This document shows positions 29,688 through 64,000 of a stretch of DNA of 64,000 nt, in pieces. The notes beneath the pieces are model-generated. The model was not told where the DNA came from. It worked only from the letters and a program-made list of their open reading frames with translations, and did no database searches. The position numbers and the translations under genes were made by a program. Location of the stretch: assembly GCF_024700885.2 (NCBI RefSeq), contig NZ_CP117016.1, one strand, 5' to 3'. This DNA is from Escherichia coli (GTDB taxonomy: Bacteria; Pseudomonadota; Gammaproteobacteria; Enterobacterales; Enterobacteriaceae). Each line of letters opens with the position of its first letter. The first letter of the stretch is position 1.

Positions 29688-30067
29688 ACCAGCCGCAGGT
29701 TTCCATTTTCCCGGCAGAAATGACCACCGCGCTTTACCGGCGGGCTATTGCTTCAGCATGGCGGCAGAAAATGCTGAACGAAACTGGCAGTGATCAGTAT
29801 GGTCCGCACAGCCTGACGGTGGAGCGTATTGAAATGGCCATTGCGCTGCATATCGAGTGCGTACTGATTAACGAGTACGGCGAAGTGCAGGGCGCCGCTG
29901 CCGCGCTGGCACTGCTGACTGACATGCTGGAGCCGTCACTGCTGACCGCGCCGCCGGTACTGACCGCGCGCGGCTGTGAAGTGATGGCGGAGATGTACCG
30001 CACGCTTCCGGCGGCCTTTGATGACTTCTGCAGTACCGGTGTGACGTTGTATGAGGGGGAAGTATGA
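29684..30067 (+). CDS. hypothetical protein (island early region, precedes primase)
   Basis: 127-aa ORF, 4-nt overlaps with both neighbours. Confidence 0.4.
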   Translation: MNQPQVSIFPAEMTTALYRRAIASAWRQKMLNETGSDQYGPHSLTVERIEMAIALHIECVLINEYGEVQGAAAALALLTDMLEPSLLTAPPVLTARGCEVMAEMYRTLPAAFDDFCSTGVTLYEGEV

Positions 30068-32736: not shown

Positions 32737-32769
32737 GGCTTTGCGTGAGTCTTATTTATTAAGGGTAAC

Positions 32770-32960
32770 AGGTGAAACAGGTGGAACAACCGTATTTTAC
32801 AGGGCTGAACCTGTTCCACCTTCTGAAATAGTGAGGTGGAACAGATGTAACGCCAGCCAATCCGCTGTTCCACCTTGTTACCCGCGATGTTCCACCGGTG
32901 CAGTGTATATAAATGCCTTATAAAACAAAGCCGTAACACATGTTTCACCTGTTCCACCGC
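32770..32960. repeat. iteron cluster (repeated GGTGGAACA/TGTTCCACC motif), candidate replication origin/crr
   Basis: At least six copies of the TGTTCCACC core in both orientations within about 190 bp directly downstream of the primase gene. Confidence 0.55.
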
Positions 32961-33046
32961 ATCAGGGACATAAAGCAGACTGAAACAGAGGGCATTTTTA
33001 TCTGGCTGGCTTTCATAGCCACGTCTGAATAACCGCAAGCGCCCGT

Positions 33047-33102
33047 TGTGCCAGCCACCACACACTGAACACCGATAGTGTGCTTGTGTCAGCCACGACA
33101 CA
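33047..33102 (+). promoter_or_regulatory. two TGT-N12-ACA dyads (Ogr/Delta-type activator sites), candidate late promoter
   Basis: TGTgccagccaccacACA (33047-33064) and TGTgtcagccacgacACA (33085-33102) upstream of the sid-like gene. Confidence 0.5.
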
Positions 33103-33136
33103 ATTGACGTAACGAACCAACCCGACAGGAGAAGTC

Positions 33137-33880
33137 ATGAACAATACCGCAGTAAATAACAACCTTTCCACTTTTCCGGCTGTAACGCAGCGGGCACTGG
33201 AAACCATGAACACAGCCAGAAACGCATGGCTTGAAGCACGTCGTCAGCAGAAAGCGGCAGCGGATAATATTGCGACAATCCGCCAGCGTCGCGCTGAAAT
33301 GGAAGCCACGACGAACACACTGAATGAGGAGTGGCGCACGCTGTTTCGTGAAAGTCAGGGCGTGATCTCAAAGGAAATGAAAAAACTGCGCACGGAAATT
33401 GCGCTGGGACGAGAAACGCTTGAGGATTTTGATGAGCTGCTGGCGGCTCAGGAAAGCGAAAATGCACTTTTGCCGCAGAAAGCTGCAGAATTAGCCGGAA
33501 AGTATATCCACGCGCATAACATTCTTGTGGATATTCGCGCAAAACAAATCTGGGAGGATTTTATGCAGTCGCATGGAAAAGTGCTTATTCAGACGCTGAG
33601 CCTGCTTAAATCCACAATGGGCCGGGAAGCCAGTGCCGTTGTGGGTGTGGTGAATTCAGTTAATGACCCGGACACAGTGCTGAAAGACTTTATTCATAAA
33701 TATATCACCAGACCGGCTCTGGCTAACGATGCGATGCCTGAGCAGGACCCGGTGTTTAAACTGGCGGGAGTTGCCCCGGATTATGCGGCGCGTCTGGATT
33801 TCAGTAATCAACTCTCTCCGGCAGCTATGCATAAAATTAAGGTTCGTCAGGAACTTGCTGAGAAGGAGAAAGCAGTATGA
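33137..33880 (+). CDS. Sid-like capsid size-determination (external scaffold) protein
   Basis: 247-aa helix-rich protein; first gene of the late operon downstream of the TGT-N12-ACA dyads and immediately upstream of the Psu-like gene; assignment by context and size. Confidence 0.45.
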   Translation: MNNTAVNNNLSTFPAVTQRALETMNTARNAWLEARRQQKAAADNIATIRQRRAEMEATTNTLNEEWRTLFRESQGVISKEMKKLRTEIALGRETLEDFDELLAAQESENALLPQKAAELAGKYIHAHNILVDIRAKQIWEDFMQSHGKVLIQTLSLLKSTMGREASAVVGVVNSVNDPDTVLKDFIHKYITRPALANDAMPEQDPVFKLAGVAPDYAARLDFSNQLSPAAMHKIKVRQELAEKEKAV

Positions 33881-34428
33881 CGGCCCGAGGCACGCCTGAC
33901 CAGGCACTTACCAGTTTTCGGAATGCCCGTATTCTGTGGGCCGGACATAATGAGAGCCGAAAAGCCGTTGAACAACAGATAACATCTCTCCTCGCTGCCA
34001 CAGAAAAACCAGCAGATTATGCCCGACAGCTCGAATTACTGCGGGAACGTCTGGATGTGCTGAAATGGCAAATTAACTGTGCTGCGCGCGAATGCATTTA
34101 CTCGCAGCATTTACTGATGGAGGCCTGCACAGAAGCCGCTCTCAGCAATTTTATGCAGGCGAATGGGGCAGCCCTGACATCTGCACTGGCTCCGTTCCTG
34201 AAGGGGCGCGGAGGGGTTGACGTTGCGTCCCGTATATTACGCAGTGCTCTGGTTCGCCAGCTGGCAATAACACCGCCTGAATTTGCCGGGGATTATCGTG
34301 AGATCCTGGATGAATCCGGTTTGATGCTTGACCCCGGGATGATTCGTGATTGCCAGGGTTCTTACACCCCGGCACAACATCTGCGTTTTCAGCAACGCCT
34401 GAATGACATTAACGATATACAGGAGTGA
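33877..34428 (+). CDS. Psu-like polarity-suppression / capsid-decoration protein
   Basis: 183 aa; motifs recalled from P4 Psu (LKWQINCAAR, HG.ALA.ALAP, TPAQHLRFQQR); 4-nt overlap with the sid-like gene. Confidence 0.65.
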   Translation: MTARGTPDQALTSFRNARILWAGHNESRKAVEQQITSLLAATEKPADYARQLELLRERLDVLKWQINCAARECIYSQHLLMEACTEAALSNFMQANGAALTSALAPFLKGRGGVDVASRILRSALVRQLAITPPEFAGDYREILDESGLMLDPGMIRDCQGSYTPAQHLRFQQRLNDINDIQE

Positions 34429-34433
34429 TATTA

Positions 34434-34706
34434 ATGGCACTTAAATGTCCGGAATGCGGTACAGTTGCACACGCCAGAACAGCAGCCTATGAAGCTCCGT
34501 CAGTTAAACGCTCGTGGTATCAGTGCCAGAATCTGGAATGTTCCTGCACATTTACGGCACTGGAGAGTGTGGATAAGATAATCATGAAACCCCGGCGCAA
34601 TGAACAGGAACCAGACAAATCACAAACCCCGGTAAAACAACAGCAAACGCTCAATCGCTATGGCTCCGCGTCAAAACTGTCAAGCCGTCAGCAGATTCCT
34701 GTCTGA
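34434..34706 (+). CDS. Ogr/Delta-family zinc-finger late transcriptional activator
   Basis: ORF 34425..34706; start trimmed to MALKCPECG with AGGAG upstream; Cys4 pattern CPECG...CQNLEC typical of Ogr/Delta. Confidence 0.75.
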   Translation: MALKCPECGTVAHARTAAYEAPSVKRSWYQCQNLECSCTFTALESVDKIIMKPRRNEQEPDKSQTPVKQQQTLNRYGSASKLSSRQQIPV

Positions 34707-34727
34707 TTAGAAAAAAAATGCCCACGT

Positions 34728-34753
34728 AATCCCGGTCGAGTACTGGGATTTTT
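34728..34753 (+). terminator. rho-independent terminator-like hairpin after the late operon
   Basis: aatccc-ggtcgagtact-gggatt stem-loop followed by a T run. Confidence 0.4.
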
Positions 34754-35289
34754 AACACCTTACCCCTGGCTGGCCTGAGAGCGCATGAGTGCATGTCTAT
34801 GGCGCATGAAAACGCATGAGTCTCATGCACCATTTTTGACGCGAAAGCCCTTGTGTGGTGGCTTCTGAGACGATTAATGAGGTGCATGAAAACCAGTCTG
34901 TTAAGTGAAGCGGGAAGGCGTGCGGGGCTGCGCACGTAGCAGGGTTAAATGGTCAATTCTGGCGCAGCTCACGACATTAAGTCAGCCTCAATAGATGTAC
35001 GTGTTGGTAGGGGTAATTCGCTACTTTTTTGTATCCTAAATTGTATGGTTTGATGCTGATCGTTTCTTCACCGCACCTGCAGAGATATCAATTCAATGTG
35101 GACAAAAATGAGTCTGGCTCTTTCCGTATCACTAGAATTGCCAGTATTGTTAGGGATGATGCCCATATCATACGGAGGGAGCCAGTGGGGGCGATTGCGC
35201 GTGGAAAGTGCTTTGGATTTATTCATCGGTTTTATGATTCTACATAAGGAGCAAAGGTACTTGTATCGTATGAAAAAAAATAGTATAGA

Positions 35290-35520
35290 TATAATGCTCC
35301 TTACGCGTTATGGCATAGTTATATGCTAGTCGGGCGATTAGCCAGACTCGAACTTATTGAACGGTATTAGGGTTGCGCTTGGTGTGCCTCTGGATTGCAC
35401 TCCATGCTGTCGCGCAATCCAGAGGCACACCAAGCGCTTCCTTTAGGTAAGTGAGTAAAAACAGCACCTTCTTCGATTTATGATGAAGGTGCTGCAATCG
35501 TAACGTTTTTTGTATACACG
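35290..35520 (+). ncRNA. candidate retron msr-msd non-coding RNA
   Basis: Non-coding stretch directly upstream of the effector-RT pair with a perfect 24-bp stem (35375-35398 / 35414-35437, 15-nt loop) and a second 10-bp stem (35462-35471 / 35485-35494); exact ends and a1/a2 repeats not resolved. Confidence 0.55.
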
Positions 35521-35529
35521 GATAGTATA

Positions 35530-36498
35530 GTGGCTGAGACATACGAAGATAAAGTTGCTAATCATGTTTCAGAGTGGGAAATGGAAAATTTCCGTGTATG
35601 TTATGATGATCAGGTTATTTTCTTATGTGGTGCGGAAGTACTTCCTCAAGGAAGTGTTCAGACTTCAATGAGAGGGCATTTTTATCACTATTGCCTGAAT
35701 AAAAATAAAGATATAGCTGATAAAATAATTCTTGCCGAAAACTTCAAAAAATATCTTCAAAATAATCATTATCCAGACTTAATAACTTTTGAGCATGATG
35801 TTGCAAGTATATCTAGTTTAGTTGTTATTTTCTTGGAAAGCAGTGGTTCAATTGCTGAGTTAGGTGTTTTCTGTAATATTAGTGATGTCAATAAAAAATT
35901 ATTGATATTTGTTCCATCAGATGAAGTTGAAGGTGACAAGAAAGAGTCTTTCATTTACTTAGGGCCTTTATTGTTTTTAAAAGAAAAGGTCAATGAAAAA
36001 GCATTTAAGATTTATCCAAAACCCACTAATGGTTCTGATTACTCCGAGCATTTAGAGATTATGGCTGATGACTTGGCTGAACTATTACCTAGAAGTGGTA
36101 AGTTTGAAAGCTTCGATCCTGACAATTTAGGGCATATAGCTTTTCTTATATGCAGAATTGTGCATTTAGTAATGCCTATTAAGCTAAAGGAAATATTAAA
36201 TTGTTTAAAAATAATAGGTATCAATAAATATACTCTGACTGAGGTTGAAAGAATTTTGTTTTTATTGGAAACATTGGGTTTTATAAATATTTATCCGTAT
36301 GGCGATTTAAAATACTATTATTCAATGCAAGCCAGGCAAAATCTTAAATTAGGGAAAAATAAAACCGGATTCACAATCGATGAGGCTGGTATTTTTACTG
36401 ATATTAGTGTTTTTATCAATGACAATAAATTATGTAGTGATAAAAAAAGACGGCTGGTTTTGAAAGGCATTAAGGAGAAGCATAATGGACATAATTAA
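35530..36498 (+). CDS. retron effector candidate: nucleoside 2-deoxyribosyltransferase-like (NDT-like) protein with C-terminal putative DNA-binding region
   Basis: 322 aa (GTG start in the ORF track); Rossmann-like N-terminus with ESSGSIAELG motif resembling the NDT-family catalytic Glu region; overlaps the RT gene by 14 nt; AT-rich. Confidence 0.6.
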   Translation: MAETYEDKVANHVSEWEMENFRVCYDDQVIFLCGAEVLPQGSVQTSMRGHFYHYCLNKNKDIADKIILAENFKKYLQNNHYPDLITFEHDVASISSLVVIFLESSGSIAELGVFCNISDVNKKLLIFVPSDEVEGDKKESFIYLGPLLFLKEKVNEKAFKIYPKPTNGSDYSEHLEIMADDLAELLPRSGKFESFDPDNLGHIAFLICRIVHLVMPIKLKEILNCLKIIGINKYTLTEVERILFLLETLGFINIYPYGDLKYYYSMQARQNLKLGKNKTGFTIDEAGIFTDISVFINDNKLCSDKKRRLVLKGIKEKHNGHN

Positions 36499-37417
36499 AA
36501 AAATCGCAGATGAAACTCTAATGCCGGTATCAAAAGTATCTGCTTTTATATTTACAGCCCCATATAGATATAAAGTATATCCCATCCCCAAAAGGAATGG
36601 TGGGTTTAGGGAGATTGCTCAACCGTCAAGGGCATTAAAGTTTATGCAAAGGATTGTTATTGCTGAACTAGAGAAAGTACTTAAGGTTCATGAAAACGCA
36701 TATGCTTATGTCAAAGGACGTAGTATAAAAGATAATGTGGAAAAGCATCAAAGAAACTCTTATATTTTGAAAGTTGATTTCTGCGACTTTTTTAATAGCA
36801 TAAACCCTTACGACCTTGAGTTATGTTTAAAAAACAATGGGTTAGACTCATTGTTAAGCTCACAAGAATTATTGAATAAACTTTTTTTCTATAAGAAAAG
36901 TAAAAGAGGTGCTTTATCAATGAGCATCGGGGCACCTAGTTCTCCATTTTTGTCAAATGCGATTATGTATAAGTTTGATTCAGTCATTAGTGATATGTGT
37001 TCAAATAAAAATATTACTTATACAAGATATGCTGATGATCTTACATTTTCTACTAATGAAAAAGGTATTTTGTATGAATTCATACATGAAATAGATAAAG
37101 TTCTTGAGGAGATAGATAGTCCTAAATTAAAACTAAATGATAAGAAAACCATATTTGCATCTAAAAAATGCAATCGTCATATAACAGGAATTGTTATTAA
37201 TAACGAAGAAAAACTTTCAATTGGTAGAGATAAAAAACGTTACTTAAGTAGTTTAATTCATAAATTCTCGCTTAATGCACTTAATGAGGAAGGAGTTGAA
37301 CATTTAAAAGGGTATTTGGCGTATGTAAATAAAATTGAACCTTCATTCATTAGCAGAATGAAAAGGAAATATGGAGTCGAAGTTGTCAACTCCATAATCA
37401 CATTTAATCCATTATAA
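36485..37417 (+). CDS. retron-type reverse transcriptase
   Basis: 310 aa; RT motifs YRYKVYPIPKRNGGFREIAQPSRALK, VDFCDFFNSI, GAPSSPFLSNAIM, TRYADDLTFS (YADD active site), HITGIVI; distant resemblance to the Ec86 RT. Confidence 0.9.
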   Translation: MDIIKKIADETLMPVSKVSAFIFTAPYRYKVYPIPKRNGGFREIAQPSRALKFMQRIVIAELEKVLKVHENAYAYVKGRSIKDNVEKHQRNSYILKVDFCDFFNSINPYDLELCLKNNGLDSLLSSQELLNKLFFYKKSKRGALSMSIGAPSSPFLSNAIMYKFDSVISDMCSNKNITYTRYADDLTFSTNEKGILYEFIHEIDKVLEEIDSPKLKLNDKKTIFASKKCNRHITGIVINNEEKLSIGRDKKRYLSSLIHKFSLNALNEEGVEHLKGYLAYVNKIEPSFISRMKRKYGVEVVNSIITFNPL

Positions 37418-37894
37418 ATGTGAACTTATTATATTTATAATGGTTGTGCTTTTTTCTTGTACCTTAGGGGTGTAAAAGAATGTCATCATGAAGATAATTA
37501 AAAAATGAATGGCAATAAGAGTAATAGGTAACATTTTTTCAATATCACTTAAATGGCGATGCCTTTTTTGTGTAATAACTTCCTCTTCTCTTTTGAAAGG
37601 AGTTATACCTATCTTGACCTCCATCTCCTGAATTACTGTAAACTTAGCAGCATTAATTCTTTTATAGGAAGTAATTAGATTTATCCAATAGATATTAATT
37701 ACGACTCCAGCGAGAGAGATTAAGATTACCCAAATAGGCTGTATTGTTGGCTTTAAAGAAAAATATCCAACAAGCGGTAAAATAGAAGAGTTTAAGGCTA
37801 ATAAAAATGTATTTGACTTAAGTCTTCGATCACTTATTCTATCCGCCATCTCAACGCATGTTTTATATATTTCTATGACTTTATCATCCGTCAC
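37412..37894 (-). CDS. small three-TM membrane protein of unknown function (candidate defence/abortive-infection effector)
   Basis: 160 aa with three predicted hydrophobic helices; AT-rich; convergent with the RT gene, its stop codon overlapping the RT's last codon. Confidence 0.55.
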   Translation of the reverse strand: MTDDKVIEIYKTCVEMADRISDRRLKSNTFLLALNSSILPLVGYFSLKPTIQPIWVILISLAGVVINIYWINLITSYKRINAAKFTVIQEMEVKIGITPFKREEEVITQKRHRHLSDIEKMLPITLIAIHFLIIFMMTFFYTPKVQEKSTTIINIISSHL

Positions 37895-38137
37895 TAATAG
37901 TATCCTTATAAATTTCTGAGTTGTTCAAATAAATGTTATCATATATTTTTATCAACGTAATATGTATTTTTACGTATTTTTAACTGTGAGAGATACATAG
38001 TGATTGTTGGGTGCATGTACAATCCTTGATACTTAACAATGAAAGCGTAGTTGTGGGGGGGGGGCATATTTGGGGGCATTACTATTTAATCTTTCTTGAT
38101 TTTTATTATAAAACAACTGGTTGTATTGATGTTTTGT

Positions 38138-38154
38138 TCCTATTATCGCACCAT
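38138..38154 (+). repeat. attR: degenerate direct repeat of the thrW 3' end (island right boundary)
   Basis: tcctattatcg-caccat matches the tRNA 3' end tcctattatcggcaccat with one missing G. Confidence 0.5.
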
Positions 38155-38280
38155 TTAAATCAAGTAGTTACCTCACATTCAATTACACCACATTTTCCTC
38201 CTGTGCCGTATTTGTGCCATTGTAACCCTGGCAATTCATCAAAATACTGTTCTGACATCAGGCAGTGCAGGTGCAGACAT

Positions 38281-38496
38281 TTAAGCCAATTGCTGCCGCC
38301 ATTCCTTGACGTGGTCAATCAGGGCGCGGAGCTTTGGTGCAATATTGCGACGCTGTGGGAAATACAGATAGAAGCCCGGAAATTGTGGAAGAAAGTCATC
38401 AAGCAGCGATACAAGCTTACCGCTTTCAATATATGGCCTGAAAGTTTCCTGAGTGGCAATTGTTATGCCTGCGCCGGCAAGAGCCAGCCTCAACAT
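38281..38496 (-). pseudogene. LysR-family regulator, C-terminal fragment only
   Basis: 71-aa ORF matching only the C-terminal effector-domain end of the LysR paralogues in this window (...FPGFYLYFPQRRNIAPKLRALIDHV); no HTH N-terminus. Confidence 0.55.
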
Positions 38497-38689
38497 CAGA
38501 CGCAGATCATTCTGCTAATCCCACCGATGCTTCGGTCTGGAGTGGTAAATTAATATTGGACACAGTTTTATTTTCTCTCTTTTTCGAGGGCTATATGAAC
38601 AGGAAGAATACATCCCTAAGCGGTTAATGCTGGCGTAATCAATAGACCAGCATTAATCACAGATGATTACCAATCAGACAGAAATGGTT

Positions 38690-38810
38690 AAATCGTCGAA
38701 TTCATATTTAATACGTTTTCTTACGCCGCTGAGCAACTTGAAAGCAGGAAAAGGATGTATATTTTAAATATCAGTGAAGTGAACAGTTTATTGCCGTTAT
38801 TAATAGAGAT
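38690..38810 (-). pseudogene. degraded duplicate of the rpmJ2 (ykgO) 3' end and ykgR
   Basis: Close nucleotide similarity to 57200-58160; ykgR-like frame disrupted by a deletion (C-terminal IVVFVAIVEYAYLFLHLY retained, N-terminus out of frame). Confidence 0.4.
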
Positions 38811-39079
38811 GGAGGAATAAATAGGCGTATTCTACTATTGCAACAAAAACAACGATAATGATCAGTTTTCATAATGAAGTAACCTGACAGATATAAAAAT
38901 GTTGATTGAGGCTAAATGCCCGGATGAAGGTTGTCGAGGGAGCCAGGTGGTTTTTTCTTTTGGGTGATCTCCATTGCTGGATAGTCCTCTCTTTCTCGCT
39001 CAAAGCAGACCCTGGAATTGAATGCAGAGGGACTACCTGACACAATTTTGCACAGTGAAGAGTCGGTCGTTATTAACGT

Positions 39080-39964
39080 TCAGATTTTCAATGTATCAAT
39101 GACCATCCGCAGGGCGGGGGAGACGTTGCGATGAGGGTAATAGAGAAACAATCCCTCCATTCGCAGGCTGTAACGCTGCAACACCCTGATAAGCTTACCG
39201 TGTTCTAAATCATCCGCGACCAGTTCAACAGGAACATAGGCCAATCCGAGGCCCAGCCGGGCTGCTTCTGCTTCCATATAGCTGTCGGATAAGGCCCATT
39301 GCCCTTCAGGGCGATGAGTGATTTTTTTATCATCCTGATTGAGTTCCCACTGGTATACGCTGCCGTCGGCAAACTGATAGGCGATACAGGGATGCGCCTT
39401 TAAATCCGCCGGGGTTTGCGGAAAACCATAGCGACGAAAATGTTCCGGAGTCCCCACAATTGCCATCTCCATATCGGGCGTGATGCGTACCGCGACCATA
39501 CCCTGGCCGACTTCAGGCCCCAGGCGGACACCTGCATCGAATCTTTCCTCGATGATATCGACGAACCGGCTCTCATTTATCAGTTCAAGCCGGATATCAG
39601 GATATCTCTGTTTAAATACCGCCAGCTTTGGCAGCAGGCATTTATCAATCGCGTGCTGGCTGGCATTGATACGCACCGTGCCGGAGGGCGTCTCTCGATA
39701 GTGCGCCAGCGTGGCAAGCCCAAGATCTAACATTTCAAATCCAGATGCCGTCTTCTGGTAGAGCTGCTCGCCTGCTTGTGTCAGCGACAGTTTACGCGTG
39801 GTGCGCACTAGCAGCTGGACGCCCAGCCTTTCTTCAAGCTCGCGAACAGAACGGCTGACTCCTGACTGAGCAAGACCCAGCCGCTGAGCCGCTGCGGTAA
39901 AGCTGCCTTCCCGCACCACCTGCATAAACAGGTACAGCTCGTTGTAGTTCTCCCTTTTCGCCAT
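39080..39964 (-). CDS. LysR-family transcriptional regulator
   Basis: 294 aa; N-terminal HTH (FTAAAQRLGLAQSGVSRSVRELEERLGVQLL) and LysR substrate-binding domain; divergent from the hydrolase gene. Confidence 0.85.
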   Translation of the reverse strand: MAKRENYNELYLFMQVVREGSFTAAAQRLGLAQSGVSRSVRELEERLGVQLLVRTTRKLSLTQAGEQLYQKTASGFEMLDLGLATLAHYRETPSGTVRINASQHAIDKCLLPKLAVFKQRYPDIRLELINESRFVDIIEERFDAGVRLGPEVGQGMVAVRITPDMEMAIVGTPEHFRRYGFPQTPADLKAHPCIAYQFADGSVYQWELNQDDKKITHRPEGQWALSDSYMEAEAARLGLGLAYVPVELVADDLEHGKLIRVLQRYSLRMEGLFLYYPHRNVSPALRMVIDTLKI

Positions 39965-40129
39965 TGAAACATCCCCCCTTCATGCCGGCAATCTCCGCAT
40001 TAATTTATAACAATATGGTATTAATCTTAGCATTAATCGCCCCCTAATCAGCACTAATTCTGCTCACTATAATGACCCCATCAAAGTAAAGCACCGCAGC
40101 GTTGTCCGTCGGAAACCTGTATCTCTCTG

Positions 40130-41279
40130 TTGTTTTTTATGGGGATTTTTATGAAAGCCTTCACCCGCACGCTAAAAACCGCGATGCCGACCATGCTGCT
40201 TTTCGCATCATTAAGTGGAGTCACGACAATGAGTTATGCTGATTCAACCAATCCTAATGCCCCTGTGTCCATGACAGATAAATGGGATAAAACGTTCGCC
40301 GAGAGCCAGAAAGTCGATCACCGTAAAGTCTCGTTCCCGAACCGATATGGCATCACCTTAGTGGGCGATCTTTACCTGCCTAAAGACCGTGGCGATCGCA
40401 AGCTGGCGGCGATTGCGGTCAGTGGGCCATTTGGCGCGGTGAAAGAGCAATCCAGCGGCTTGTATGCGCAGACGCTGGCGGAACGAGGGTTTGTTACCCT
40501 GGCGTTCGATCCTTCTTACACCGGGGAAAGCGGCGGCTATCCGCGAAACGTCGCCTCACCGGATATCAACACTGAAGATTTCAGCGCGGCGGTGGATTTC
40601 TTAGGGCTGCAAAAAGAGGTAGATCGCAACCGTATCGGGCTGCTCGGTATTTGTGGCTGGGGCGGCATGGCGCTGAACGACGTGGCGATGGATACCCGCG
40701 TTAAAGCGGTAGCTACCAGCGTGATGTATGACATGAGCCGGGCGATGGGTCATGGTGTGGGGGATGGCAAAGACCGTTATTCTACCGCCGACCGTCGTGC
40801 CGTTCTGCAATATCTGAATGAACAGCGCTGGAAGGATGCGCAGAGCGGAACGTTCGCTCACGGTGGTCATGATATTAATGTCGACAGCAACGGCAAGGTC
40901 AGTGCGGGCGAGCGCATTCTGCCAGAAACGCTGCCGGCAAATCCTCATCCGGTACTGAAAGAGTTCTTTGACTACTATCGCATGCCGCGCGGCTTCCACG
41001 AACGTTCCGTTAACTCTACCGGGGCGTGGACGGCAACGATGCCGCTGGAATATGCCGCTGTTGAGCTACGCCAGTGAAATCACCATCCCGACGCTGATTG
41101 TGACCGGTGAGAAAGCGCATTCACGCTATTTTGCTGAAGATGCTTACAAGGTGGTTGGCAGTAACGACAAAGAGCTGGTGGTGGTACCAGGGGCAAATCA
41201 CGTGGACCTGTACGATAACGTGGCCGGAAAAATACCTTTCGCGAAGTTCGAACAATTTTTCCAGACCAAACTGAAATAA
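40130..41279 (+). pseudogene. alpha/beta (dienelactone-type, Cys-nucleophile) hydrolase, frameshifted by a 13-bp duplication
   Basis: ORF 40130..41077 carries the N-terminal and core domain (GICGWGG elbow); the C-terminus with catalytic His (GANHVDLYD) continues in ORF 40968..41279 in another frame; tandem duplicate atgccgctg(gaat)atgccgctg at 41039-41060. Confidence 0.6.
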
Positions 41280-41354
41280 AACCTCTCCTGAATTGATGCA
41301 AAGCCACCGGCCATAGGCTGGTGGCTTTTATCCTGATCTTTGTGAAATTTCACT

Positions 41355-42548
41355 ATGTCGACACTAAGCCAAACACTATCACCTCATCATCAGCGCGCAT
41401 ACTGGGGCGGTATTTTTGCCATGACCCTGTGCGTGTTTGTGCTGATTGCTTCTGAATTTATGCCCGTCAGCCTGCTCACGCCGATTACCCGCGATTTAGG
41501 CGTGACGGAGGGGCTGGCAGGGCAGGGGATTGCTATCTCCGGCGCGCTGGCGGTTCTGACCAGCCTGACGCTTTCAACGCTAGCTGGAAAGATGAATCGT
41601 AAGTTCCTGCTGCTGGGGATGACGGTTCTGATGGCCGTATCGGGGCTTATTATTGCGCTGGCTTCCAGTTATCTGATGTATATGGTCGGTCGTGCGATGA
41701 TTGGTGTGGCTATTGGCGGATTCTGGTCGATGTCAGCGGCAACGGCGATTCGTCTGGTGCCGCAGCATCAGGTCACGCGTGCGCTGGCAATTTTCAACGC
41801 CGGTAATGCGCTGGCGACGGTCGTGGCCGCACCGCTGGGAAGCTATCTGGGGGCTACGGTCGGATGGCGAGGCGCTTTCTTGTGCCTGGTGCCCATCGCG
41901 GTTGTCGCCTTTATCTGGCAGTGCATCAGCCTGCCAAGCATGGATGCGAATAAAAGCCACACTTCATGTGGCGCGGTATTCCGCTTATTTAGCCGCCGCA
42001 TGGTTGTGGTCGGCATGATAGCCTGCTGCCTGTTTTTCATGGGGCAGTTTGCACTATTCACCTATGTGCGCCCGTTTCTGGAGTCGGTGACACGGGTTAA
42101 TTCCTTAGGCTTGTCGTTGATTTTGCTGATTATCGGCGTGGCCGGTTTTATTGGCACGCTGGTTGTTTCGGCATTTCTCAACAGAAAATTCTACCCCACG
42201 CTGATGGCCATACCCGGACTGATGGCCGTCATTGCTATCGGTCTGATGCTGACCGGGCATCACGTCTGGACGGTCTCGCTGCTGTTAGGACTCTGGGGCA
42301 TGCTGGCCACCGCCGCGCCAACCGGATGGTGGACATGGATTGCGCGTACGTTGCCTGACAACGCCGAAGCCGGAGGCGGGCTCATGGTCGCGGTGATTCA
42401 GCTCTCCATCGCCCTTGGATCAACAGCAGGAGGCATCGTATTTGACCGCCTTGGCTGGCAGAGCACGTTTGCTATGAGTAGCGTGCTGCTCCTTTGCGCT
42501 GGCGTACTGACCTTTGTTACCGCACGCCAGAAGGCCGGTGCGCTTTAG
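41355..42548 (+). CDS. MFS-family transporter
   Basis: 397 aa with 12 predicted TM helices. Confidence 0.85.
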   Translation: MSTLSQTLSPHHQRAYWGGIFAMTLCVFVLIASEFMPVSLLTPITRDLGVTEGLAGQGIAISGALAVLTSLTLSTLAGKMNRKFLLLGMTVLMAVSGLIIALASSYLMYMVGRAMIGVAIGGFWSMSAATAIRLVPQHQVTRALAIFNAGNALATVVAAPLGSYLGATVGWRGAFLCLVPIAVVAFIWQCISLPSMDANKSHTSCGAVFRLFSRRMVVVGMIACCLFFMGQFALFTYVRPFLESVTRVNSLGLSLILLIIGVAGFIGTLVVSAFLNRKFYPTLMAIPGLMAVIAIGLMLTGHHVWTVSLLLGLWGMLATAAPTGWWTWIARTLPDNAEAGGGLMVAVIQLSIALGSTAGGIVFDRLGWQSTFAMSSVLLLCAGVLTFVTARQKAGAL

Positions 42549-42727
42549 TCCGGCGAGGGCGCGCGTTGCTGAATAAGTTACACAAGGCGATGAGCGCCCA
42601 CTATGGGTTGGGTGCTCTTTTAAACGATTTAGGTGATTTTCTAAAACGGCTACTGCAGATTTTTCTCTTAATTTATGGGTATTTCCCCCGGAGGCGAGAA
42701 AGCGCTCTCCACGCCCGGCCGCAAGGA

Positions 42728-55693: not shown

Positions 55694-56305
<612 letters not shown>

Positions 56306-57319
56306 TTACAGGTGCATTCAGTTTCCTTAGTAAACCGGAGGTAAATAAGATACGTAGTACATATCAATAAAGGTTAAACGAGATTAAGTTTAATTATTTT
56401 CGATTGGGCTTAAATTTATGTTTTTTTCCCGATGAGTGTCAATATGTGAACGGAAAAGGAATTCAATGGTTAAGTCAATATTTAGAAAAACTGAAAATAT
56501 TGCTTTTTTGATAAGAAGAAAAAGACATTTAGTTTCATAAGGTTATTGGCAATATAACGTTCATTTCTTACTTGCATTTTATATTGGTCAGGAACTTTGC
56601 CCTGAAGTGTTAGGAATAGTCTTAATGCGCTGTGTGATGGACTAGTAAAAAAACAAGTTTTAAGGGTAAGGGATAGAATATAAAACTATTATGAGCTGTC
56701 ATTGAAGATGATTTGCCAATCAGTAAGATATTTTAATGGATTAACATGCCGCACAAAATGGTTATAGGTGTTCATTACAATAAGTGATGGAAAATTGAAC
56801 GGGTATAAGTACGTCATCTGTTCGGTAAGTCCCCCAAGAGCCAAATTAAGTGAAGTTAAACGAAGGCTGCCAGCTGTCACAGGAACGATGGCCTCTTTGT
56901 CAGGGCACTGCATTCAGTCATCTGTGCGCATTACTCTAACTGGCACTCGAACGTCAGCGACGGGGTTACCGGTGGATCAGGCTGTTCCTGTGGCGTAAAC
57001 GTTTTTATGTTAGTACCAACAGATTTACCACATTTATCATCTTAACAGTTTGAGTGAAAATGCAGGCTGCGCCGCAAAGGGAGGAGACTGATGGCGTGTT
57101 CAGTCTAAAAGAGGGTTGATGCCAGCATACAGGGGCGAAGCTGGTCAACACGTCAACATTAATATAATGGAATATTCGGAGAGAAACGTCAGGCAGTTGA
57201 CCTTAAATGAACAGGAAGATACATCCCCAGGAAAATTAATGCTGGTGTAATAAATACACCAACATTAATCCGGTCTGATTATTAATCAGACAAATATCGT
57301 TAATTCGTCGAATTTTAAA

Positions 57320-57460
57320 TCAACGTTTTTTCTTACGACCCTGAACGGCCTTAAAACGTGGATTAGATTTACAAATCACATACAGCCGTCCTTTTCGCTT
57401 CACAATCTGACAGTCTGGATGGCGTTCTTTTGCGGTACGCAGAGAGTTAAGGACTTTCAT
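57320..57460 (-). CDS. rpmJ2: 50S ribosomal protein L36 paralogue (zinc-independent type B)
   Basis: 46 aa [46 protein letters not shown]; start overlaps the rpmE2 stop; not in the ORF track (<60 aa). Confidence 0.85.
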
Positions 57461-57726
57461 CATGCCTCCTTTTTCGTGCTAACAAAACGACCAAAACGTT
57501 GGGTGAACCGTGCAACATTTCCTTCTGATGCCACTGTTCTCAGCTTCCCTGTATAGAACGGGTGCGATTTCGAAGAGACATCAATTGTTACGTACGGATA
57601 CGTTACGCCATCCAGCTCAATCTCACGGTCTGTTTTGATAGTCGAGCCGATTTTAAAGTACTCATCAACACTGGTGTCATGGAACACCACAGTACGATAC
57701 TCAGGATGGATATTGGGTTTCATCAT
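57460..57726 (-). CDS. rpmE2: 50S ribosomal protein L31 paralogue (zinc-independent type B)
   Basis: 88 aa [61 protein letters not shown]... Confidence 0.9.
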
Positions 57727-57732
57727 TTTTAC

Positions 57733-57754
57733 CGGTTATGTTATAACATAACCG
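57733..57754. promoter_or_regulatory. Zur box upstream of rpmE2-rpmJ2
   Basis: cGGTTATGTTATAACATAACCg is a perfect palindrome of the Zur operator type, immediately upstream of the rpmE2 start. Confidence 0.6.
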
Positions 57755-58087
57755 CAAAGATACATGCTCATCCGGATCATTTCAACACCCAATCCCTGTG
57801 ACTATTTGTAGGATGTGGAATTTCCGCAACGGAGAAGTCTGGTATTGTTAGCAGCCATTGGCGACGCTCTCATAAACGCCTGGATGAGTGATTGATGATG
57901 GTTTCGCTGAGAGTATGAATTTTTCGAGAATGGAGGCTATCTCCACTTTACTGGCCGATGATTTATCGCAGTTTGATTGATTACCTGACAGCGTGTATTC
58001 CTCTCCCACGGATATAATAATTACTTACAAAAAAGGGAGAGGATGCATATTTTAAATATCACTGCAGTGAACAGTTTATTGCCGTTA

Positions 58088-58661: not shown

Positions 58662-59804
58662 TTAATCTATTAACGGAAACCAGCCAGTTCCTTTCGATGC
58701 CTGAATTTGATCCCATAGTTTATCCGGAATGGTTAATTCAGGAACAAGTTGTGGATTAAGGGTTGTTTGAATTTCATGGCCTCTACCTGATTCAGCTAAA
58801 GTCACCCATTCTGGATTTATCACCAGCCCTTTACCGATCGCAACAAGTGGCAGGCCAGTGGAAATTGCTTCTTGAGCCTGAGACGGTGTGCGTATTTTAC
58901 CTGCAGCGATTACCGGCACTCTGCCTGCAATATGATTTAAAATCAATTCAATAGTTCGGGGGCCATTTGGCGACTCAACAGGGTAGCTATCGTTAATACT
59001 GACCAGCGAGGTATGTATATACGAAATACCGGATGAAATGAGCCGATCAAGGAGTTTATAAGTATCCTCTATCCGCAGCCCCCCTGTTACAGATTCTTCA
59101 GGAGATATTCTGTAACCGATAGCAAAGGGCTTTGTCGCATATTCATAGACTACATTTTTTACTTCCTGTAATACGGCCAGCGGGAAGCGCATACGTCCTT
59201 CAAGATCTCCTCCCCATCGGTCATTACGCTGGTTAAATAGAGGGGAGAAGAAATTCTGCAGAAGGAATCCGTGCGCACCATGAAGTTCAACGCCATCAAA
59301 ACCTGCTTTAATCGCCCTTTTTGTGACATCTCCGAATGCTCTAATGGTTTCCTGAATTTCGTTTTCAGTCATTTCCCTGCTTTGTACCACTCTCTTCATA
59401 AAGTCACCAGATTTTACGCTTGATGCGCTGGCACTAATAACATCGTTATTTGGTACAAGCTCCGGGATGGCTTTATTACCGGCGTGGAAAATCTGCAAAA
59501 TAGCCGGAGCCCCCCCACTTTGGGCTGCCGCTGCTAACTTTTCAAGGCTGTTAATGAAACGGTCGTCATATGCGGCAAATTCATGAGTAAACCCAATGCC
59601 GCTTGGCGTGACATAGGTACATCCTGTTATTACTAAACCAACATTTTGTGAGCGGCGTTTATAAAATTCGAGTTCTTGCTCAGAGATGGTTCCATCAGGA
59701 TTCGCTGACCAGGTCGTCATAGGGGCCATAACGATACGATTACGTAGCTTTATTTTTTCTGTCAGCATAAAAGGAGAAAACAATGATGGGTGTTTATTTG
59801 TCAT
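58662..59804 (-). CDS. NADH:flavin oxidoreductase (Old Yellow Enzyme family)
   Basis: 380 aa TIM-barrel OYE-like sequence (PMTTWSANPDG..., HGAHGFLLQNFFSPLFNQRNDRWGG). Confidence 0.85.
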   Translation of the reverse strand: MTNKHPSLFSPFMLTEKIKLRNRIVMAPMTTWSANPDGTISEQELEFYKRRSQNVGLVITGCTYVTPSGIGFTHEFAAYDDRFINSLEKLAAAAQSGGAPAILQIFHAGNKAIPELVPNNDVISASASSVKSGDFMKRVVQSREMTENEIQETIRAFGDVTKRAIKAGFDGVELHGAHGFLLQNFFSPLFNQRNDRWGGDLEGRMRFPLAVLQEVKNVVYEYATKPFAIGYRISPEESVTGGLRIEDTYKLLDRLISSGISYIHTSLVSINDSYPVESPNGPRTIELILNHIAGRVPVIAAGKIRTPSQAQEAISTGLPLVAIGKGLVINPEWVTLAESGRGHEIQTTLNPQLVPELTIPDKLWDQIQASKGTGWFPLID

Positions 59805-60048: not shown

Positions 60049-60969
60049 TTACAAATGTGTTTTATAAAAAGGAATTAATTTATCGAGTGCCTGTTTCACA
60101 GGTTCTGGCTTATCATACAGGTCGTAATGTGAATAACCTTCAACCACGACCAGCTCTTTATGTTTTGAGGCAGCGCGGCCAATAATTTCGCAGCCGTCAC
60201 GGTAGGCACCAAATGCGCCCACTCTATCGCCCACCACAACCATTATTGGTTGAGTTAACAGGACTTCTGCAAGATGAAATGCATCCCAACCCACGGCAAC
60301 AGTCTGATGTGAGAATAGCGAACGATTTACCCCATTAGGTGCACAGCCTCGTGGCGAACGATAATATTCTGTGGCTTCAAAAAGGTCTATTTCTGTTAAT
60401 CCCGCTTCAAGAGCTGCATCCGGAGAAGAGGGGAGTAAATCATCTACGCGAAGTTTTGCGCCGTTAGCTTCGTCTGTTCTTTGTTGCGCCATTGCTTCGA
60501 GTGCTCCGATAGGATTAAACGCTGTAAATCCCTCACGCATAAGACGCCCGTAGTTTGCACCCGTGACAGTACCAATAGCTTTAATTCGACGTTCTGTCAT
60601 TGCGGCATTAATGGCATATCCACCTCCACCACAAATACCCAGTACACCAATACGCCCGGCATCAACGTAAGGTAAGGTGGTAAGGTAATCAACGACAATG
60701 CTGAAGTCTTTTACTCGCATTGTTGGATCTTCCAGATAACGCGGTTCCCCACCGCTGCTTCCCTGAAAACTGGCATCAAAAGCAATGACGATAAAGCCAG
60801 CTTTTGCCAGGGCGGCACCATACACACTACCCGATGTCTGTTCTTTGCAGCTTCCAATTGGATGGGCGCTGATAATGGCAGGATACTTTTTTTCACTATT
60901 AAAATCGTCAGGGAAATAGATATCAGCAGCTATATCCCAGTAAGTGTGTTTTATCGAAACAGTTTTCAT
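60049..60969 (-). CDS. alpha/beta (dienelactone-type, Cys-nucleophile) hydrolase
   Basis: 306 aa; GICGGGG elbow and C-terminal His (YSHYDLYD); paralogue of the frameshifted gene at 40130. Confidence 0.8.
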   Translation of the reverse strand: MKTVSIKHTYWDIAADIYFPDDFNSEKKYPAIISAHPIGSCKEQTSGSVYGAALAKAGFIVIAFDASFQGSSGGEPRYLEDPTMRVKDFSIVVDYLTTLPYVDAGRIGVLGICGGGGYAINAAMTERRIKAIGTVTGANYGRLMREGFTAFNPIGALEAMAQQRTDEANGAKLRVDDLLPSSPDAALEAGLTEIDLFEATEYYRSPRGCAPNGVNRSLFSHQTVAVGWDAFHLAEVLLTQPIMVVVGDRVGAFGAYRDGCEIIGRAASKHKELVVVEGYSHYDLYDKPEPVKQALDKLIPFYKTHL

Positions 60970-61125
60970 TTCAAGCTCCGGGGATTTGCCTAAACAGATT
61001 TAAATATCATTTCTATTATCCGCAACTGGCATTCGTGTTCATATCGAGAACGGCGTAATAGTATGACTTGTATTGGTTATCATCAATGGTCTAATATCTA
61101 TCACAGTGTTAAGTTAAGGTTTACA

Positions 61126-62052
61126 ATGATGAAAATAGAGCCTTCAATTTTGCCTTCTCTTGCCTGGTTTGCGCATATTGTTCGTGCCGGCAGTTTTTCC
61201 AGAGCCGCTTCTGAAATGGGTATTACGCGGGCCGCATTGTCCCAGAATTTAAAATCTCTTGAGGAACGTCTTAACACCAAGCTGATATACCGTACGACCC
61301 GCAATATGTCGCTTACTGAGGAAGGACTGCGTCTGTATGAAGTGCTGGTGTCGGCTTTGGGGCAAATTGATGATGCTTTGAAAGATGTTGGTGATACCCA
61401 ACTTGAACCTACAGGCCTGTTGAGAATAAATTCCTCCCGTGTTGCAGCAAGGATGCTTATTGAGCCTCATATTGGCGAGTTTCTTACTCGTTACCCCAAA
61501 ACAAAGATAGAACTCATTATGGATGACGGTTTATCTAACATTATTGCGGACGGCTGTGATGTGGGCATACGTCTTGAGCAAGGACTGGATGAGCATATGA
61601 CTGCCGTTCCTGTTTCTCCGCTTATTAAACTGGTTACTGTGGCATCGCCAGATTATTTAAAAGAACACGGTATTCCTGAAACGCCTCAGGAACTGAGTAA
61701 CCATAATTGCCTTCGGTTGCGGCATAAAAGTAGCGGTGCACTCTCTGCATGGGAGTTTTCTAATGTTGCGGGCGGGAATGAAGAGTTCGAAATAGAGGTT
61801 TCAGGTAAGTATATTTCTAATGATGACGAAAGCATGATACGAATGGCGCTGAATGGAACGGGTATCATTCAACATCTGGATTTTGCAATCGCTGAACATA
61901 TCAATGCGGGCAAGTTACAGCCGATTCTTGAGGATTGGGCCGTTTCATTTCCTGGGTTTTATATATATGTTTCATCACGGGTGAGAATGCCCTCTAAAGT
62001 TCGTGCTTTTATTGATTTTATGGTGGAGAAAAGAGTAAAAATAGAAAGTTAA
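61126..62052 (+). CDS. LysR-family transcriptional regulator
   Basis: ORF 61063..62052; start trimmed to MMKIEPS; HTH FSRAASEMGITRAALSQNLKSLEERL; divergent from the hydrolase gene. Confidence 0.85.
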   Translation: MMKIEPSILPSLAWFAHIVRAGSFSRAASEMGITRAALSQNLKSLEERLNTKLIYRTTRNMSLTEEGLRLYEVLVSALGQIDDALKDVGDTQLEPTGLLRINSSRVAARMLIEPHIGEFLTRYPKTKIELIMDDGLSNIIADGCDVGIRLEQGLDEHMTAVPVSPLIKLVTVASPDYLKEHGIPETPQELSNHNCLRLRHKSSGALSAWEFSNVAGGNEEFEIEVSGKYISNDDESMIRMALNGTGIIQHLDFAIAEHINAGKLQPILEDWAVSFPGFYIYVSSRVRMPSKVRAFIDFMVEKRVKIES

Positions 62053-62134
62053 TGATGTGTGTCAGAATATCGGTAAGAAGAATGGCACAATCGTGAGGAT
62101 ACGTTTATTCATAATAAATCTCCTGAAAGTTTAG

Positions 62135-64000
<1,866 letters not shown>

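What the first reader, a model, noticed from the sequence alone, without database searches (positions are those of the whole stretch)
39080..41279. Duplicated LysR plus Cys-nucleophile hydrolase module
The divergent pair at 39080-41279 has a paralogue at 60049-62052. Both hydrolases have a cysteine in the nucleophile elbow (GICGWGG / GICGGGG), as in dienelactone-type hydrolases. One copy is frameshifted, suggesting redundancy after duplication.
Basis: seen in the sequence. Interest (0 to 1): 0.25.

Follow-up and report, generated by a model that had tools for sequence, protein, structure and literature searches.

The report
Two unrelated LysR–cysteine hydrolase cassettes
The two regulator-plus-hydrolase gene pairs are real and both enzymes carry a cysteine where most relatives have the catalytic serine, but they are anciently diverged members of a large known family acquired separately, not a duplication, and the frameshift is private to this one E. 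coli strain.

Summary
The sequence observations hold. The window (E. coli MLI114 chromosome) has two divergent LysR/alpha-beta-hydrolase pairs. Both hydrolases have Cys in the nucleophile elbow, and the first is broken by a frameshift.

The duplication reading does not hold:
- The hydrolases are 32% identical, the paired LysRs 29%, and the DNA shows no similarity.
- H1 (40151-41279) matches P. aeruginosa PA2218 (PDB 2HDW). H2 (60049-60969) is nearer E. coli YcjY (PDB 5XB6, 41%).
- LysR_A is nearer LysR_C (62252-63145, 42%) and PgrR (41%) than H2's partner LysR_B.
- Each pair belongs to its own cassette, conserved in other bacteria: LysR_A, exported H1 and an MFS transporter, versus LysR_B, cytoplasmic H2 and an OYE flavin reductase.

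The elbow Cys is a hallmark of the whole YcjY/PA2218 family (833 clusters at 50% identity). The closest characterised structures are the fungal enzymes DcsB and GrgF. Dienelactone hydrolases rank lower.

The frameshift is an 8-bp deletion found in 1 of 912 E. coli genomes carrying the gene. It is a recent private lesion, possibly an assembly error, and says nothing about redundancy.

Verdict: ordinary accessory genes of unknown substrate, low interest.

The parts
39080..39964 (-). LysR_A, a 294-aa LysR-type regulator transcribed divergently from H1
   Evidence: Pfam HTH_1 and LysR_substrate. RefSeq WP_001119037.1. Orthologues of 86-89% identity sit in the same position in Klebsiella michiganensis and Yersinia frederiksenii. 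Identity to LysR_B is 29%, to LysR_C 42% and to PgrR 41%.
39965..40150 (.). Intergenic control region of cassette 1
   Evidence: The core ATTTATAACAATATGrTAT (contains a T-N11-A), a CTATAAT -10-like hexamer and the GGGGA Shine-Dalgarno/ATG at 40151 are conserved in E. coli, Klebsiella and Yersinia. Binding by LysR_A is inferred, not shown.
40151..41279 (+). H1, a PA2218-type Cys alpha/beta hydrolase and a pseudogene here (intact form 378 aa with signal peptide)
   Evidence: PDB 2HDW (PA2218) matches at E 9e-125. Most homologues are 378 aa and cover the N-terminus MKAF...MSYA|DS. Elbow is GICGWGG with the protein's only Cys, at 168. RefSeq starts the gene at 40229 and flags it frameshifted.
41047..41048 (+). 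Site of the 8-bp deletion (TCATTTAT) that frameshifts H1
   Evidence: Alignment with strain 1190. The deletion junction was found in 1 of 912 genomes. The frame change cuts off the C-terminal ~72 residues, including the conserved His of NHVDLYD.
41355..42548 (+). MFS transporter, third gene of cassette 1
   Evidence: Pfam MFS_1. Orthologues of 75-77% identity lie directly downstream of H1 orthologues in Klebsiella and Yersinia. MFS homologues also lie next to H1-like genes in Pseudoalteromonas, Pseudomonas, Bosea and Rhizobium. RefSeq start is 41421.
60049..60969 (-). H2, an intact 306-aa YcjY-type Cys alpha/beta hydrolase with no signal peptide
60970..61125 (.). Intergenic region between H2 and LysR_B
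   Evidence: Sequence read. No binding site was analysed.
61126..62052 (+). LysR_B, a 308-aa LysR regulator transcribed divergently from H2-OYE
   Evidence: Pfam HTH_1 and LysR_substrate. RefSeq WP_001605084.1. Relatives of 51-57% identity sit divergently upstream of H2-like genes in 7 distant genomes.
58662..59804 (-). OYE-type NADH:flavin oxidoreductase downstream of H2
   Evidence: Pfam Oxidored_FMN at E 1e-77. A 56% orthologue lies after the YcjY-like/H2-like tandem in Paraburkholderia nodosa. K-12 ykgP is its 3' remnant.
62252..63145 (+). LysR_C, a second LysR next to cassette 2 and the closest in-window relative of LysR_A
   Evidence: 42% identical to LysR_A and 47% to PgrR. It clusters with LysRs found next to H1-like hydrolases in Bosea and Microvirga.

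Best explanation
The window holds two independent accessory cassettes, each with its own orthologues in distant bacteria. They are not a duplicated module.

- Cassette 1 is LysR_A, exported H1 (PA2218-type, elbow GICGWGG) and an MFS transporter.
- Cassette 2 is LysR_B, cytoplasmic H2 (YcjY-type, elbow GICGGGGY) and an OYE flavin reductase.

Both hydrolases belong to the large YcjY/PA2218 family of alpha/beta hydrolases, whose hallmark is a Cys in the nucleophile elbow paired with a conserved His (N-H-x-D-L-Y-D).

Inferred mechanism:
1. The LysR binds the shared intergenic region and switches the divergent operon in response to a small ligand. PgrR does this at ycjY in K-12.
2. The hydrolase attacks an ester, lactone or thioester through a thioester acyl-enzyme on the Cys.
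3. In cassette 1 this happens in the periplasm, with the MFS moving substrate or product.
4. In cassette 2 it happens in the cytoplasm, coupled to an ene-reductase.

In this strain H1 has lost its C-terminal third, including the catalytic His, through a private 8-bp deletion. Cassette 1 is therefore enzymatically dead here.

Shown: homology, family placement, conserved neighbourhoods, the position of the Cys, and the rarity of the deletion. Inferred: regulation, export, chemistry and substrate.
For: Identities:
- H1-H2 32%, H2-YcjY 41%, LysR_A-LysR_B 29%, LysR_A-LysR_C 42%, LysR_A-PgrR 41%.
- No DNA similarity between the modules.

Nearest relatives:
- H1 matches PA2218 (2HDW) at E 9e-125.
- H2 matches YcjY (5XB6) at E 4e-67.

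Family:
- 833 50%-identity clusters at E<1e-30.
- The elbow residue is Cys in 115 of the 120 sequences matched by a motif regex that allowed C, S, A, G or T there, out of 150 sampled representatives, and in 71 of 81 full-length representatives.
- H1 and H2 fall in separate deep clades.

Conserved cassettes:
- LysR_A, H1 and MFS are conserved in different genomic contexts in Klebsiella and Yersinia.
- H1-like plus MFS occurs in four more genera.
- LysR_B-like regulators sit divergently from H2-like genes in 7 genomes, and an OYE orthologue occurs in Paraburkholderia.

Regulator precedent and mismatch:
- ycjY and pgrR are divergent in K-12. PgrR binds the ycjY/ycjZ intergenic region and controls ycjY-ymjDC-mpaA (PMC5934670).
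- The hydrolase tree ((H2,YcjY),H1) disagrees with the LysR tree (B,(A,(C,PgrR))).

Other:
- The deletion is present in 1 of 912 genomes.
- Signal peptides or lipoboxes are common in the H1 clade and absent from H2 and YcjY.
Against: - No substrate or activity is known for any bacterial member, so the chemistry is inference.
- The canonical acid position after strand beta7 is Ala in 62 of 81 family members. The triad is therefore unresolved and the enzymes might use a Cys-His dyad or another acid.
- LysR adjacency is not universal: 14 of 80 sampled loci.
- The LysR_A/LysR_C/PgrR clade recurs next to H1-like and YcjY-like hydrolases. A very ancient regulator-enzyme linkage cannot be fully excluded.
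- The trees are neighbour-joining without bootstrap.
- The 8-bp deletion could be an assembly error rather than a real mutation.
Confidence: 0.8

Rival explanations
1. One reading: a segmental duplication within the E. coli lineage produced two copies of a LysR-hydrolase module. One copy then decayed because it was redundant.
For: - Both pairs are divergent LysR/hydrolase pairs of the same two superfamilies within 20 kb.
- One copy is frameshifted.
- A 123-bp partial copy of ykgR (91% identical) lies beside module 1 and the full ykgR lies beside module 2. So some duplication has occurred in this region.
Against: - Protein identities are 29-32% with no DNA similarity. The ykgR repeat, by contrast, is still 91% identical.
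- Gene order is not collinear relative to the ykgR repeats: LysR(-), Hyd(+), MFS(+) versus OYE(-), Hyd(-), LysR(+).
- Closer relatives exist in other phyla.
- The frameshift is private to 1 of 912 genomes.
- Module 1 is in 914 and module 2 in 2219 of 5426 E. coli genomes, so they are inherited independently.
Confidence: 0.02
2. An ancient co-duplication: a primordial LysR-plus-hydrolase unit duplicated long before Enterobacteria existed. Regulator and enzyme then diverged together, so the two pairs are true but very old module paralogues.
For: - A divergent LysR sits 150 bp or less upstream of a family hydrolase in 14 of 80 sampled loci. No background rate was computed, but only 27 LysR ORFs were detected across all 80 loci.
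- Three such pairs exist in the E. coli pan-genome, counting ycjY-pgrR.
- LysRs of the A/C/PgrR clade recur next to H1-like and YcjY-like hydrolases.
Against: - The trees are incongruent. H2 groups with YcjY, but H2's regulator LysR_B is the outgroup to LysR_A, LysR_C and PgrR.
- The same YcjY-like/H2-like tandem is served by PgrR-like regulators in some genomes and by LysR_B-like ones in others. That shows regulator replacement.
- Most family members have no adjacent LysR at all.
Confidence: 0.12
3. The hydrolases are bona fide dienelactone hydrolases (Pfam DLH, ClcD-like). They would work in a chloroaromatic or lactone degradation route, with OYE standing in for maleylacetate reductase.
For: - The Cys is at the position equivalent to ClcD Cys123.
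- H2 scores 25.0 bits against Pfam DLH, just above the 21-bit cut-off.
- An ene-reductase lies downstream of H2.
Against: - H1 has no DLH hit. H2's hit is partial (profile positions 12-123 of 217) and weaker than its Peptidase_S15 hit.
- The family profile scores only 8.7 bits against ClcD.
- The canonical Asp position is Ala.
- The proteins have a ~100-residue cap that the 236-aa ClcD lacks.
- No catechol-pathway genes are nearby.
Confidence: 0.05

Closest known systems
E. coli YcjY (b1327; PDB 5XB6) with its divergent LysR regulator PgrR (YcjZ)
   Same: - Cys in the elbow (GICAGAG), which is the protein's only Cys.
- Same divergent LysR arrangement.
- PgrR is 41% identical to LysR_A and 47% to LysR_C.
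   Different: - The ycjY operon continues into ymjD, ymjC and mpaA (peptidoglycan recycling), not MFS or OYE.
- PgrR is only 31% identical to H2's own partner LysR_B.
- The biochemical function of YcjY is itself unknown.
Pseudomonas aeruginosa PA2218 (PDB 2HDW, a structural-genomics 'hypothetical protein')
   Same: - Near-full-length match to H1 (E 9e-125).
- Same GICGWGG elbow, WDKTF N-terminal motif and NHVDLYD histidine motif.
   Different: - No function or publication was found.
- H1 in this window is truncated by the 8-bp deletion.
- The genomic context of PA2218 was not examined here.
Fungal polyketide-offloading alpha/beta hydrolases GrgF (PDB 6LZH) and DcsB (PDB 7D78)
   Same: - GrgF is described as a cysteine hydrolase (bioRxiv 10.1101/2020.12.16.421545).
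   Different: - Only 18-22% identity.
- They act on carrier-protein-bound polyketides inside biosynthetic clusters: Claisen-type chain fusion for GrgF (PMC12304814) and thioesterase activity for DcsB.
- No PKS or carrier-protein genes are near H1 or H2.
Dienelactone hydrolase ClcD (Pfam PF01738)
   Same: Alpha/beta hydrolase with Cys, not Ser, at the nucleophile elbow. The family Cys aligns with ClcD Cys123.
   Different: - Marginal sequence similarity.
- No cap domain in ClcD.
- The canonical Asp171-equivalent is absent from the YcjY family.

Membership tests
YcjY/PA2218 family of alpha/beta hydrolases (PDB 5XB6, 2HDW) | Full-length sequence homology to the solved members | tested here: met
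   [not shown]
YcjY/PA2218 family of alpha/beta hydrolases (PDB 5XB6, 2HDW) | Cys in the nucleophile elbow, G-[IV]-C-[GA]-x-G-G | tested here: met
   H1 has GICGWGG and H2 has GICGGGG. The residue is Cys in 115 of 120 regex-matched sequences out of 150 sampled representatives, and in 71 of 81 full-length representatives. Position is strand-Cys-helix in the model.
YcjY/PA2218 family of alpha/beta hydrolases (PDB 5XB6, 2HDW) | Conserved C-terminal His in N-H-x-D-L-Y-D, plus the K-E-Q and invariant Arg motifs | tested here: met
   H281, D283, Y285, K42-E43-Q44 and R128 (H2 numbering) are conserved in 65-81 of 81 representatives and are present in H2 and in intact H1. In the window's H1 the His motif lies in the shifted frame.
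Dienelactone hydrolase (Pfam PF01738, ClcD type) | Passes the Pfam DLH model over most of its length | tested here: not met
   H1 has no DLH hit. H2 scores 25.0 bits (cut-off 21), but only over profile positions 12-123 of 217 and below its Peptidase_S15 hit of 39.9 bits.
Dienelactone hydrolase (Pfam PF01738, ClcD type) | Cys nucleophile at the elbow | tested here: met
   The family profile aligns GICagGG with ClcD VGYC123LGG. The ClcD sequence was recalled from memory and checked by the positions of residues E36, R81, C123, D171, H202 and R206.
Dienelactone hydrolase (Pfam PF01738, ClcD type) | Canonical Asp after strand beta7 completing a Cys-His-Asp triad | tested here: not met
   The position that aligns with the catalytic Asp of 9PJB and 7QJM (G+3 after beta7) is Ala in 62 of 81 members. 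It is Val in H2 and Ala in H1 and YcjY. Geometry could not be measured.
LysR-type transcriptional regulators | N-terminal HTH_1 plus C-terminal LysR_substrate domain, about 300 aa | tested here: met
   All three full-length LysRs hit both Pfam domains at E<1e-19. None reaches any NCBIfam equivalog cut-off; the best is YafC at 160-192 bits against 470.
LysR-type transcriptional regulators | Divergent transcription from the regulated operon, with a T-N11-A site in the shared intergenic region | tested here: inconclusive
   The divergent arrangement is seen for LysR_A/H1 and LysR_B/H2. A conserved ATAACAATATGrTAT element containing T-N11-A lies in the module 1 intergenic region. Binding was not tested, and the module 2 site was not analysed.
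Recent paralogous (segmentally duplicated) module | The two copies are each other's closest relatives, with residual DNA similarity and collinear gene content | tested here: not met
   blastn finds nothing between the modules. Closer relatives exist for all four genes. The third genes differ, MFS versus OYE.

The most novel reading that the evidence does not exclude
The YcjY/PA2218 family may not be a set of simple hydrolases. It could be a large bacterial family of Cys-dependent acyl-transfer or lactone-processing enzymes, mechanistically akin to fungal GrgF and DcsB, that lack the canonical triad acid. On this reading the two E. coli cassettes would be distinct, ligand-inducible pathways for an unidentified small-molecule ester or thioester. 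One would be periplasmic (H1 plus MFS) and one cytoplasmic (H2 plus OYE). Finding the substrate would de-orphan two crystal structures and the PgrR-controlled YcjY.
Probability: 0.15. Interest if true: 0.4.

Novelty: already known. Interest (0 to 1): 0.1.

Why it matters
It matters little for this window. The genes are already annotated (RefSeq 'alpha/beta hydrolase', 'LysR family transcriptional regulator'). They belong to a family with two solved structures and occur in hundreds to thousands of E. coli genomes.

The useful outcome is mostly corrective:
- There is no duplication and no redundancy-driven decay.
- The RefSeq start of H1 probably omits a signal peptide.

The wider point is modest. 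The family is large (more than 800 clusters at 50% identity), nearly always has a Cys nucleophile, appears to lack the canonical acid, and still has no known bacterial substrate. The conserved partners found here (MFS, OYE, and YcjY-like/H2-like tandems) are leads for anyone trying to assign a function to YcjY or PA2218.

Tried and rejected
- **DNA self-comparison.** blastn and dc-megablast of 36000-42600 against 56000-64000 found no similarity between the modules. They found only a 123-bp ykgR fragment repeat and a 146-bp 77% match.
- **NCBIfam scan.** No equivalog was reached. The hydrolases gave only weak partial hits to UilS lactonase (62-87 bits against a 400-bit cut-off), and all LysRs hit YafC far below cut-off. 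This was not used for naming.
- **Literature.** Searches for YcjY and PA2218 found no biochemical characterisation. The PA2218 hits were mostly unrelated strings.
- **K-12 yagP as a remnant of LysR_A.** Rejected. yagP is 28% identical to LysR_A but 97% identical to the separate fragment at 38281-38496.
- **Neighbourhoods of two distant representatives (P0127, P0136).** Neither had an adjacent LysR, so they were uninformative about the cassettes.
- **Glu36-type activation as in ClcD.** Considered for the conserved K-E-Q motif.
- **Promoter and terminator scan of cassette 1.** Counts were no better than in shuffled sequence.
- **Identifying the triad acid from conservation.** No conserved acid lies at the canonical site. 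The candidates (D283, E43, D65) remain unresolved.
Full report
**Source and anatomy**

The window is 100% identical to the chromosome of E. coli strain MLI114 (NZ_CP117013.1), on the reverse strand.

- Module 1 is LysR_A (39080-39964, -), a hydrolase I call H1 (+), and an MFS transporter (41355/41421-42548, +). It lies between a P4-like satellite/retron island and paoD. H1 is split into ORFs 40130-41077 and 40968-41279.
- Module 2 is hydrolase H2 (60049-60969, -) and LysR_B (61126-62052, +; the longest ORF starts at 61063). An OYE-type flavin reductase lies downstream of H2 (58662-59804, -). A second LysR, LysR_C (62252-63145, +), follows LysR_B.

**The frameshift**

Alignment with strain 1190 shows an 8-bp deletion (TCATTTAT) after window position 41047. 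RefSeq marks the gene 'frameshifted' in MLI114 and intact in strain 1190.

An 80-bp probe across the junction matched perfectly in 1 of 912 genomes that carry the gene. All the others aligned at about 91% because they carry the extra 8 bases. The lesion is therefore private to this strain, or is an assembly error. It removes the last ~72 residues, including the conserved His.

**Are the pairs specifically related? No.**

| Pair | Identity |
|---|---|
| H1 – H2 | 32% |
| H1 – YcjY | 34% |
| H2 – YcjY | 41% |
| LysR_A – LysR_B | 29% |
| LysR_A – LysR_C | 42% |
| LysR_A – PgrR | 41% |
| LysR_C – PgrR | 47% |
| LysR_B – PgrR | 31% |

- blastn finds no similarity between the modules. A 123-bp fragment of ykgR beside module 1 is still 91% identical to the full ykgR beside module 2. 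Any duplication that made that repeat is far younger than the H1/H2 split. The genes to the right of the two ykgR copies are also not collinear.
- H1 matches P. aeruginosa PA2218 (PDB 2HDW) at E 9e-125. H2 matches E. coli YcjY (PDB 5XB6) at E 4e-67.
- In a neighbour-joining tree of 81 full-length family representatives, H1 sits in a 'GICGWGG' clade. H2 and YcjY sit in neighbouring 'GIC[AG]GGGY' clades.
- The modules are inherited independently in E. coli. Module 1 is in 914 and module 2 in 2219 of 5426 complete genomes.
- K-12 has lost module 2 by deletion. Its pseudogene ykgP is the last 29 codons of the OYE gene, 27 of 29 identical.

**Each pair is part of its own conserved cassette**

- H1 orthologues of 85-98% identity and 378 aa are spread through Enterobacterales.
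- In Klebsiella michiganensis and Yersinia frederiksenii, the trio of LysR (86-89% to LysR_A), H1 and MFS (75-77%) is intact but sits in unrelated surroundings.
- MFS homologues also flank H1-like genes in Pseudoalteromonas, Pseudomonas, Bosea and Rhizobium.

A scan of one genome per species returned 80 loci.
- In 14 of them a LysR lies 150 bp or less upstream, divergent from the first family hydrolase. Seven of these regulators are LysR_B-like (51-57%), six are PgrR-like (59-88%) and one is neither.
- In 13 loci a YcjY-like gene and an H2-like gene lie in tandem. In Paraburkholderia nodosa the tandem is followed by an OYE orthologue of 56% identity.
- H2's natural evolutionary partner is therefore YcjY, not H1.
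- The same tandem is controlled by PgrR-like regulators in some genomes and by LysR_B-like regulators in others. The hydrolase tree ((H2,YcjY),H1) also disagrees with the LysR tree (B,(A,(C,PgrR))). Both facts argue against co-duplication of a regulator-enzyme unit.

**The cysteine**

- The family profile aligns its GiCagGG with the GISLGG and GLSMGG motifs of serine hydrolases 7QJM, 9PJB and 8B4U. It aligns with VGYC123LGG of dienelactone hydrolase ClcD. That ClcD sequence was recalled from memory and validated by six known residue positions.
- An AlphaFold model of H2 (pLDDT 95.5) places Cys113 between strand 102-112 and helix 114-125, the classical nucleophile elbow.
- The Cys is a family hallmark, not a peculiarity of these genes. 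It is Cys in 115 of 120 regex-matched sequences out of 150 sampled representatives, and in 71 of 81 full-length ones. The family has 833 clusters at E<1e-30.
- H1 and YcjY each contain only this one Cys.
- Also conserved are K42-E43-Q44, D65, R128, Y202-Y203 and H281-x-D283-L-Y-D286 (H2 numbering).
- The position that carries the catalytic Asp in canonical relatives is Ala in 62 of 81 members. The third triad member is unresolved.

**Dienelactone hydrolase or not**

- H1 has no Pfam DLH hit. H2 has a partial 25-bit hit, weaker than its Peptidase_S15 hit.
- The comparison with dienelactone hydrolase is a fair analogy for the nucleophile, but it is not family membership.

**Compartment**

- Conserved homologue lengths and a conserved Shine-Dalgarno/ATG in E. 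coli, Klebsiella and Yersinia support the H1 start at 40151.
- That start gives MKAFTRTLKTAMPTMLLFASLSGVTTMSYA|DS, a Sec-type signal peptide judged by eye. RefSeq starts 26 codons later.
- Six of nine full-length representatives with an aromatic elbow residue (the H1-type motif) carry an N-terminal extension of at least 20 residues with a hydrophobic stretch, consistent with signal peptides or lipoboxes. H2 and YcjY carry none.
- H1 is therefore probably periplasmic and H2 cytoplasmic, which is a further argument against redundancy.

**Likely mechanism (inferred)**

- The precedent is PgrR, which binds the ycjY/ycjZ intergenic region and controls ycjY-ymjDC-mpaA (PMC5934670; arrangement). By analogy, LysR_A and LysR_B probably bind their intergenic regions and switch the divergent operons in response to a ligand.
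- The module 1 intergenic region has a conserved ATAACAATATGrTAT element containing T-N11-A, and a conserved CTATAAT.
- The hydrolases would form a thioester acyl-enzyme on the Cys.
- Cassette 1 would act in the periplasm with MFS transport. Cassette 2 would act in the cytoplasm, coupled to an ene-reductase.
- The substrate is unknown for every bacterial member.

**Verdict**

These are ordinary, already annotated accessory genes from a structurally known, functionally orphan family. Interest is low.

Noticed in passing
window 38746-38868 versus 58034-58156; also 38592-38732 versus 57204-57344: A 123-bp partial copy of ykgR (91% identical, same orientation) lies just left of LysR_A. A 146-bp stretch with 77% identity to the ykgL/ykgO junction lies beside it. 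The two copies form a direct repeat bracketing the ~19-kb pao-yagU-ykgJ-ecp-ykgL-ykgO-ykgM segment. Its origin is unexplained (old duplication or recombination scar).
   Followed up: partly
window 38281-38496 (-): A fourth LysR remnant. This 71-aa C-terminal fragment is 97% identical to the C-terminus of K-12 YagP. In K-12, yagP abuts paoD directly. So the roughly 4-kb segment holding the ykgR fragment, LysR_A, H1 and MFS is an insertion/deletion polymorphism at this spot.
   Followed up: partly
window ~30064-37894: A P4-like satellite element lies immediately upstream of module 1. It has a TOPRIM/DUF927 primase, a polarity suppression protein and an ogr/Delta zinc finger. It carries a retron St85-type defence system: effector at 35530-36498, reverse transcriptase at 36485-37417, and a RipA-family membrane protein at 37412-37894.
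   Followed up: no
window 58662-59804; K-12 locus L095 22717-22806: The K-12 pseudogene ykgP is the last 29 codons of the OYE flavin reductase gene (27 of 29 identical). K-12 has therefore deleted the whole AKR-AKR-LysR_C-LysR_B-H2-OYE island between eaeH and ykgR.
   Followed up: yes
window 40151 versus 40229: The RefSeq start of the H1 gene (40229) probably cuts off a Sec-type signal peptide. The upstream ATG at 40151 has a conserved Shine-Dalgarno sequence and matches the 378-aa length of most homologues.
   Followed up: partly
loci L017, L018, L020-L025, L027-L029, L036, L061: In 13 genomes from several phyla, a YcjY-like and an H2-like hydrolase lie in tandem. The tandem often follows a divergent LysR, which is PgrR-like in some genomes and LysR_B-like in others. 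E. coli keeps the two hydrolases at separate loci.
   Followed up: partly
family alignment, H2 positions 247-254: The canonical acid position of the alpha/beta-hydrolase triad (loop after strand beta7) is Ala in 62 of 81 family representatives. Q44 and R128 are invariant, and His281 is followed by a conserved Asp283. The identity of the third catalytic residue is open.
   Followed up: partly
window 57060-57285: RefSeq also annotates ykgL as frameshifted in this strain. This is a second small lesion in the same 20-kb region of this assembly.
   Followed up: no
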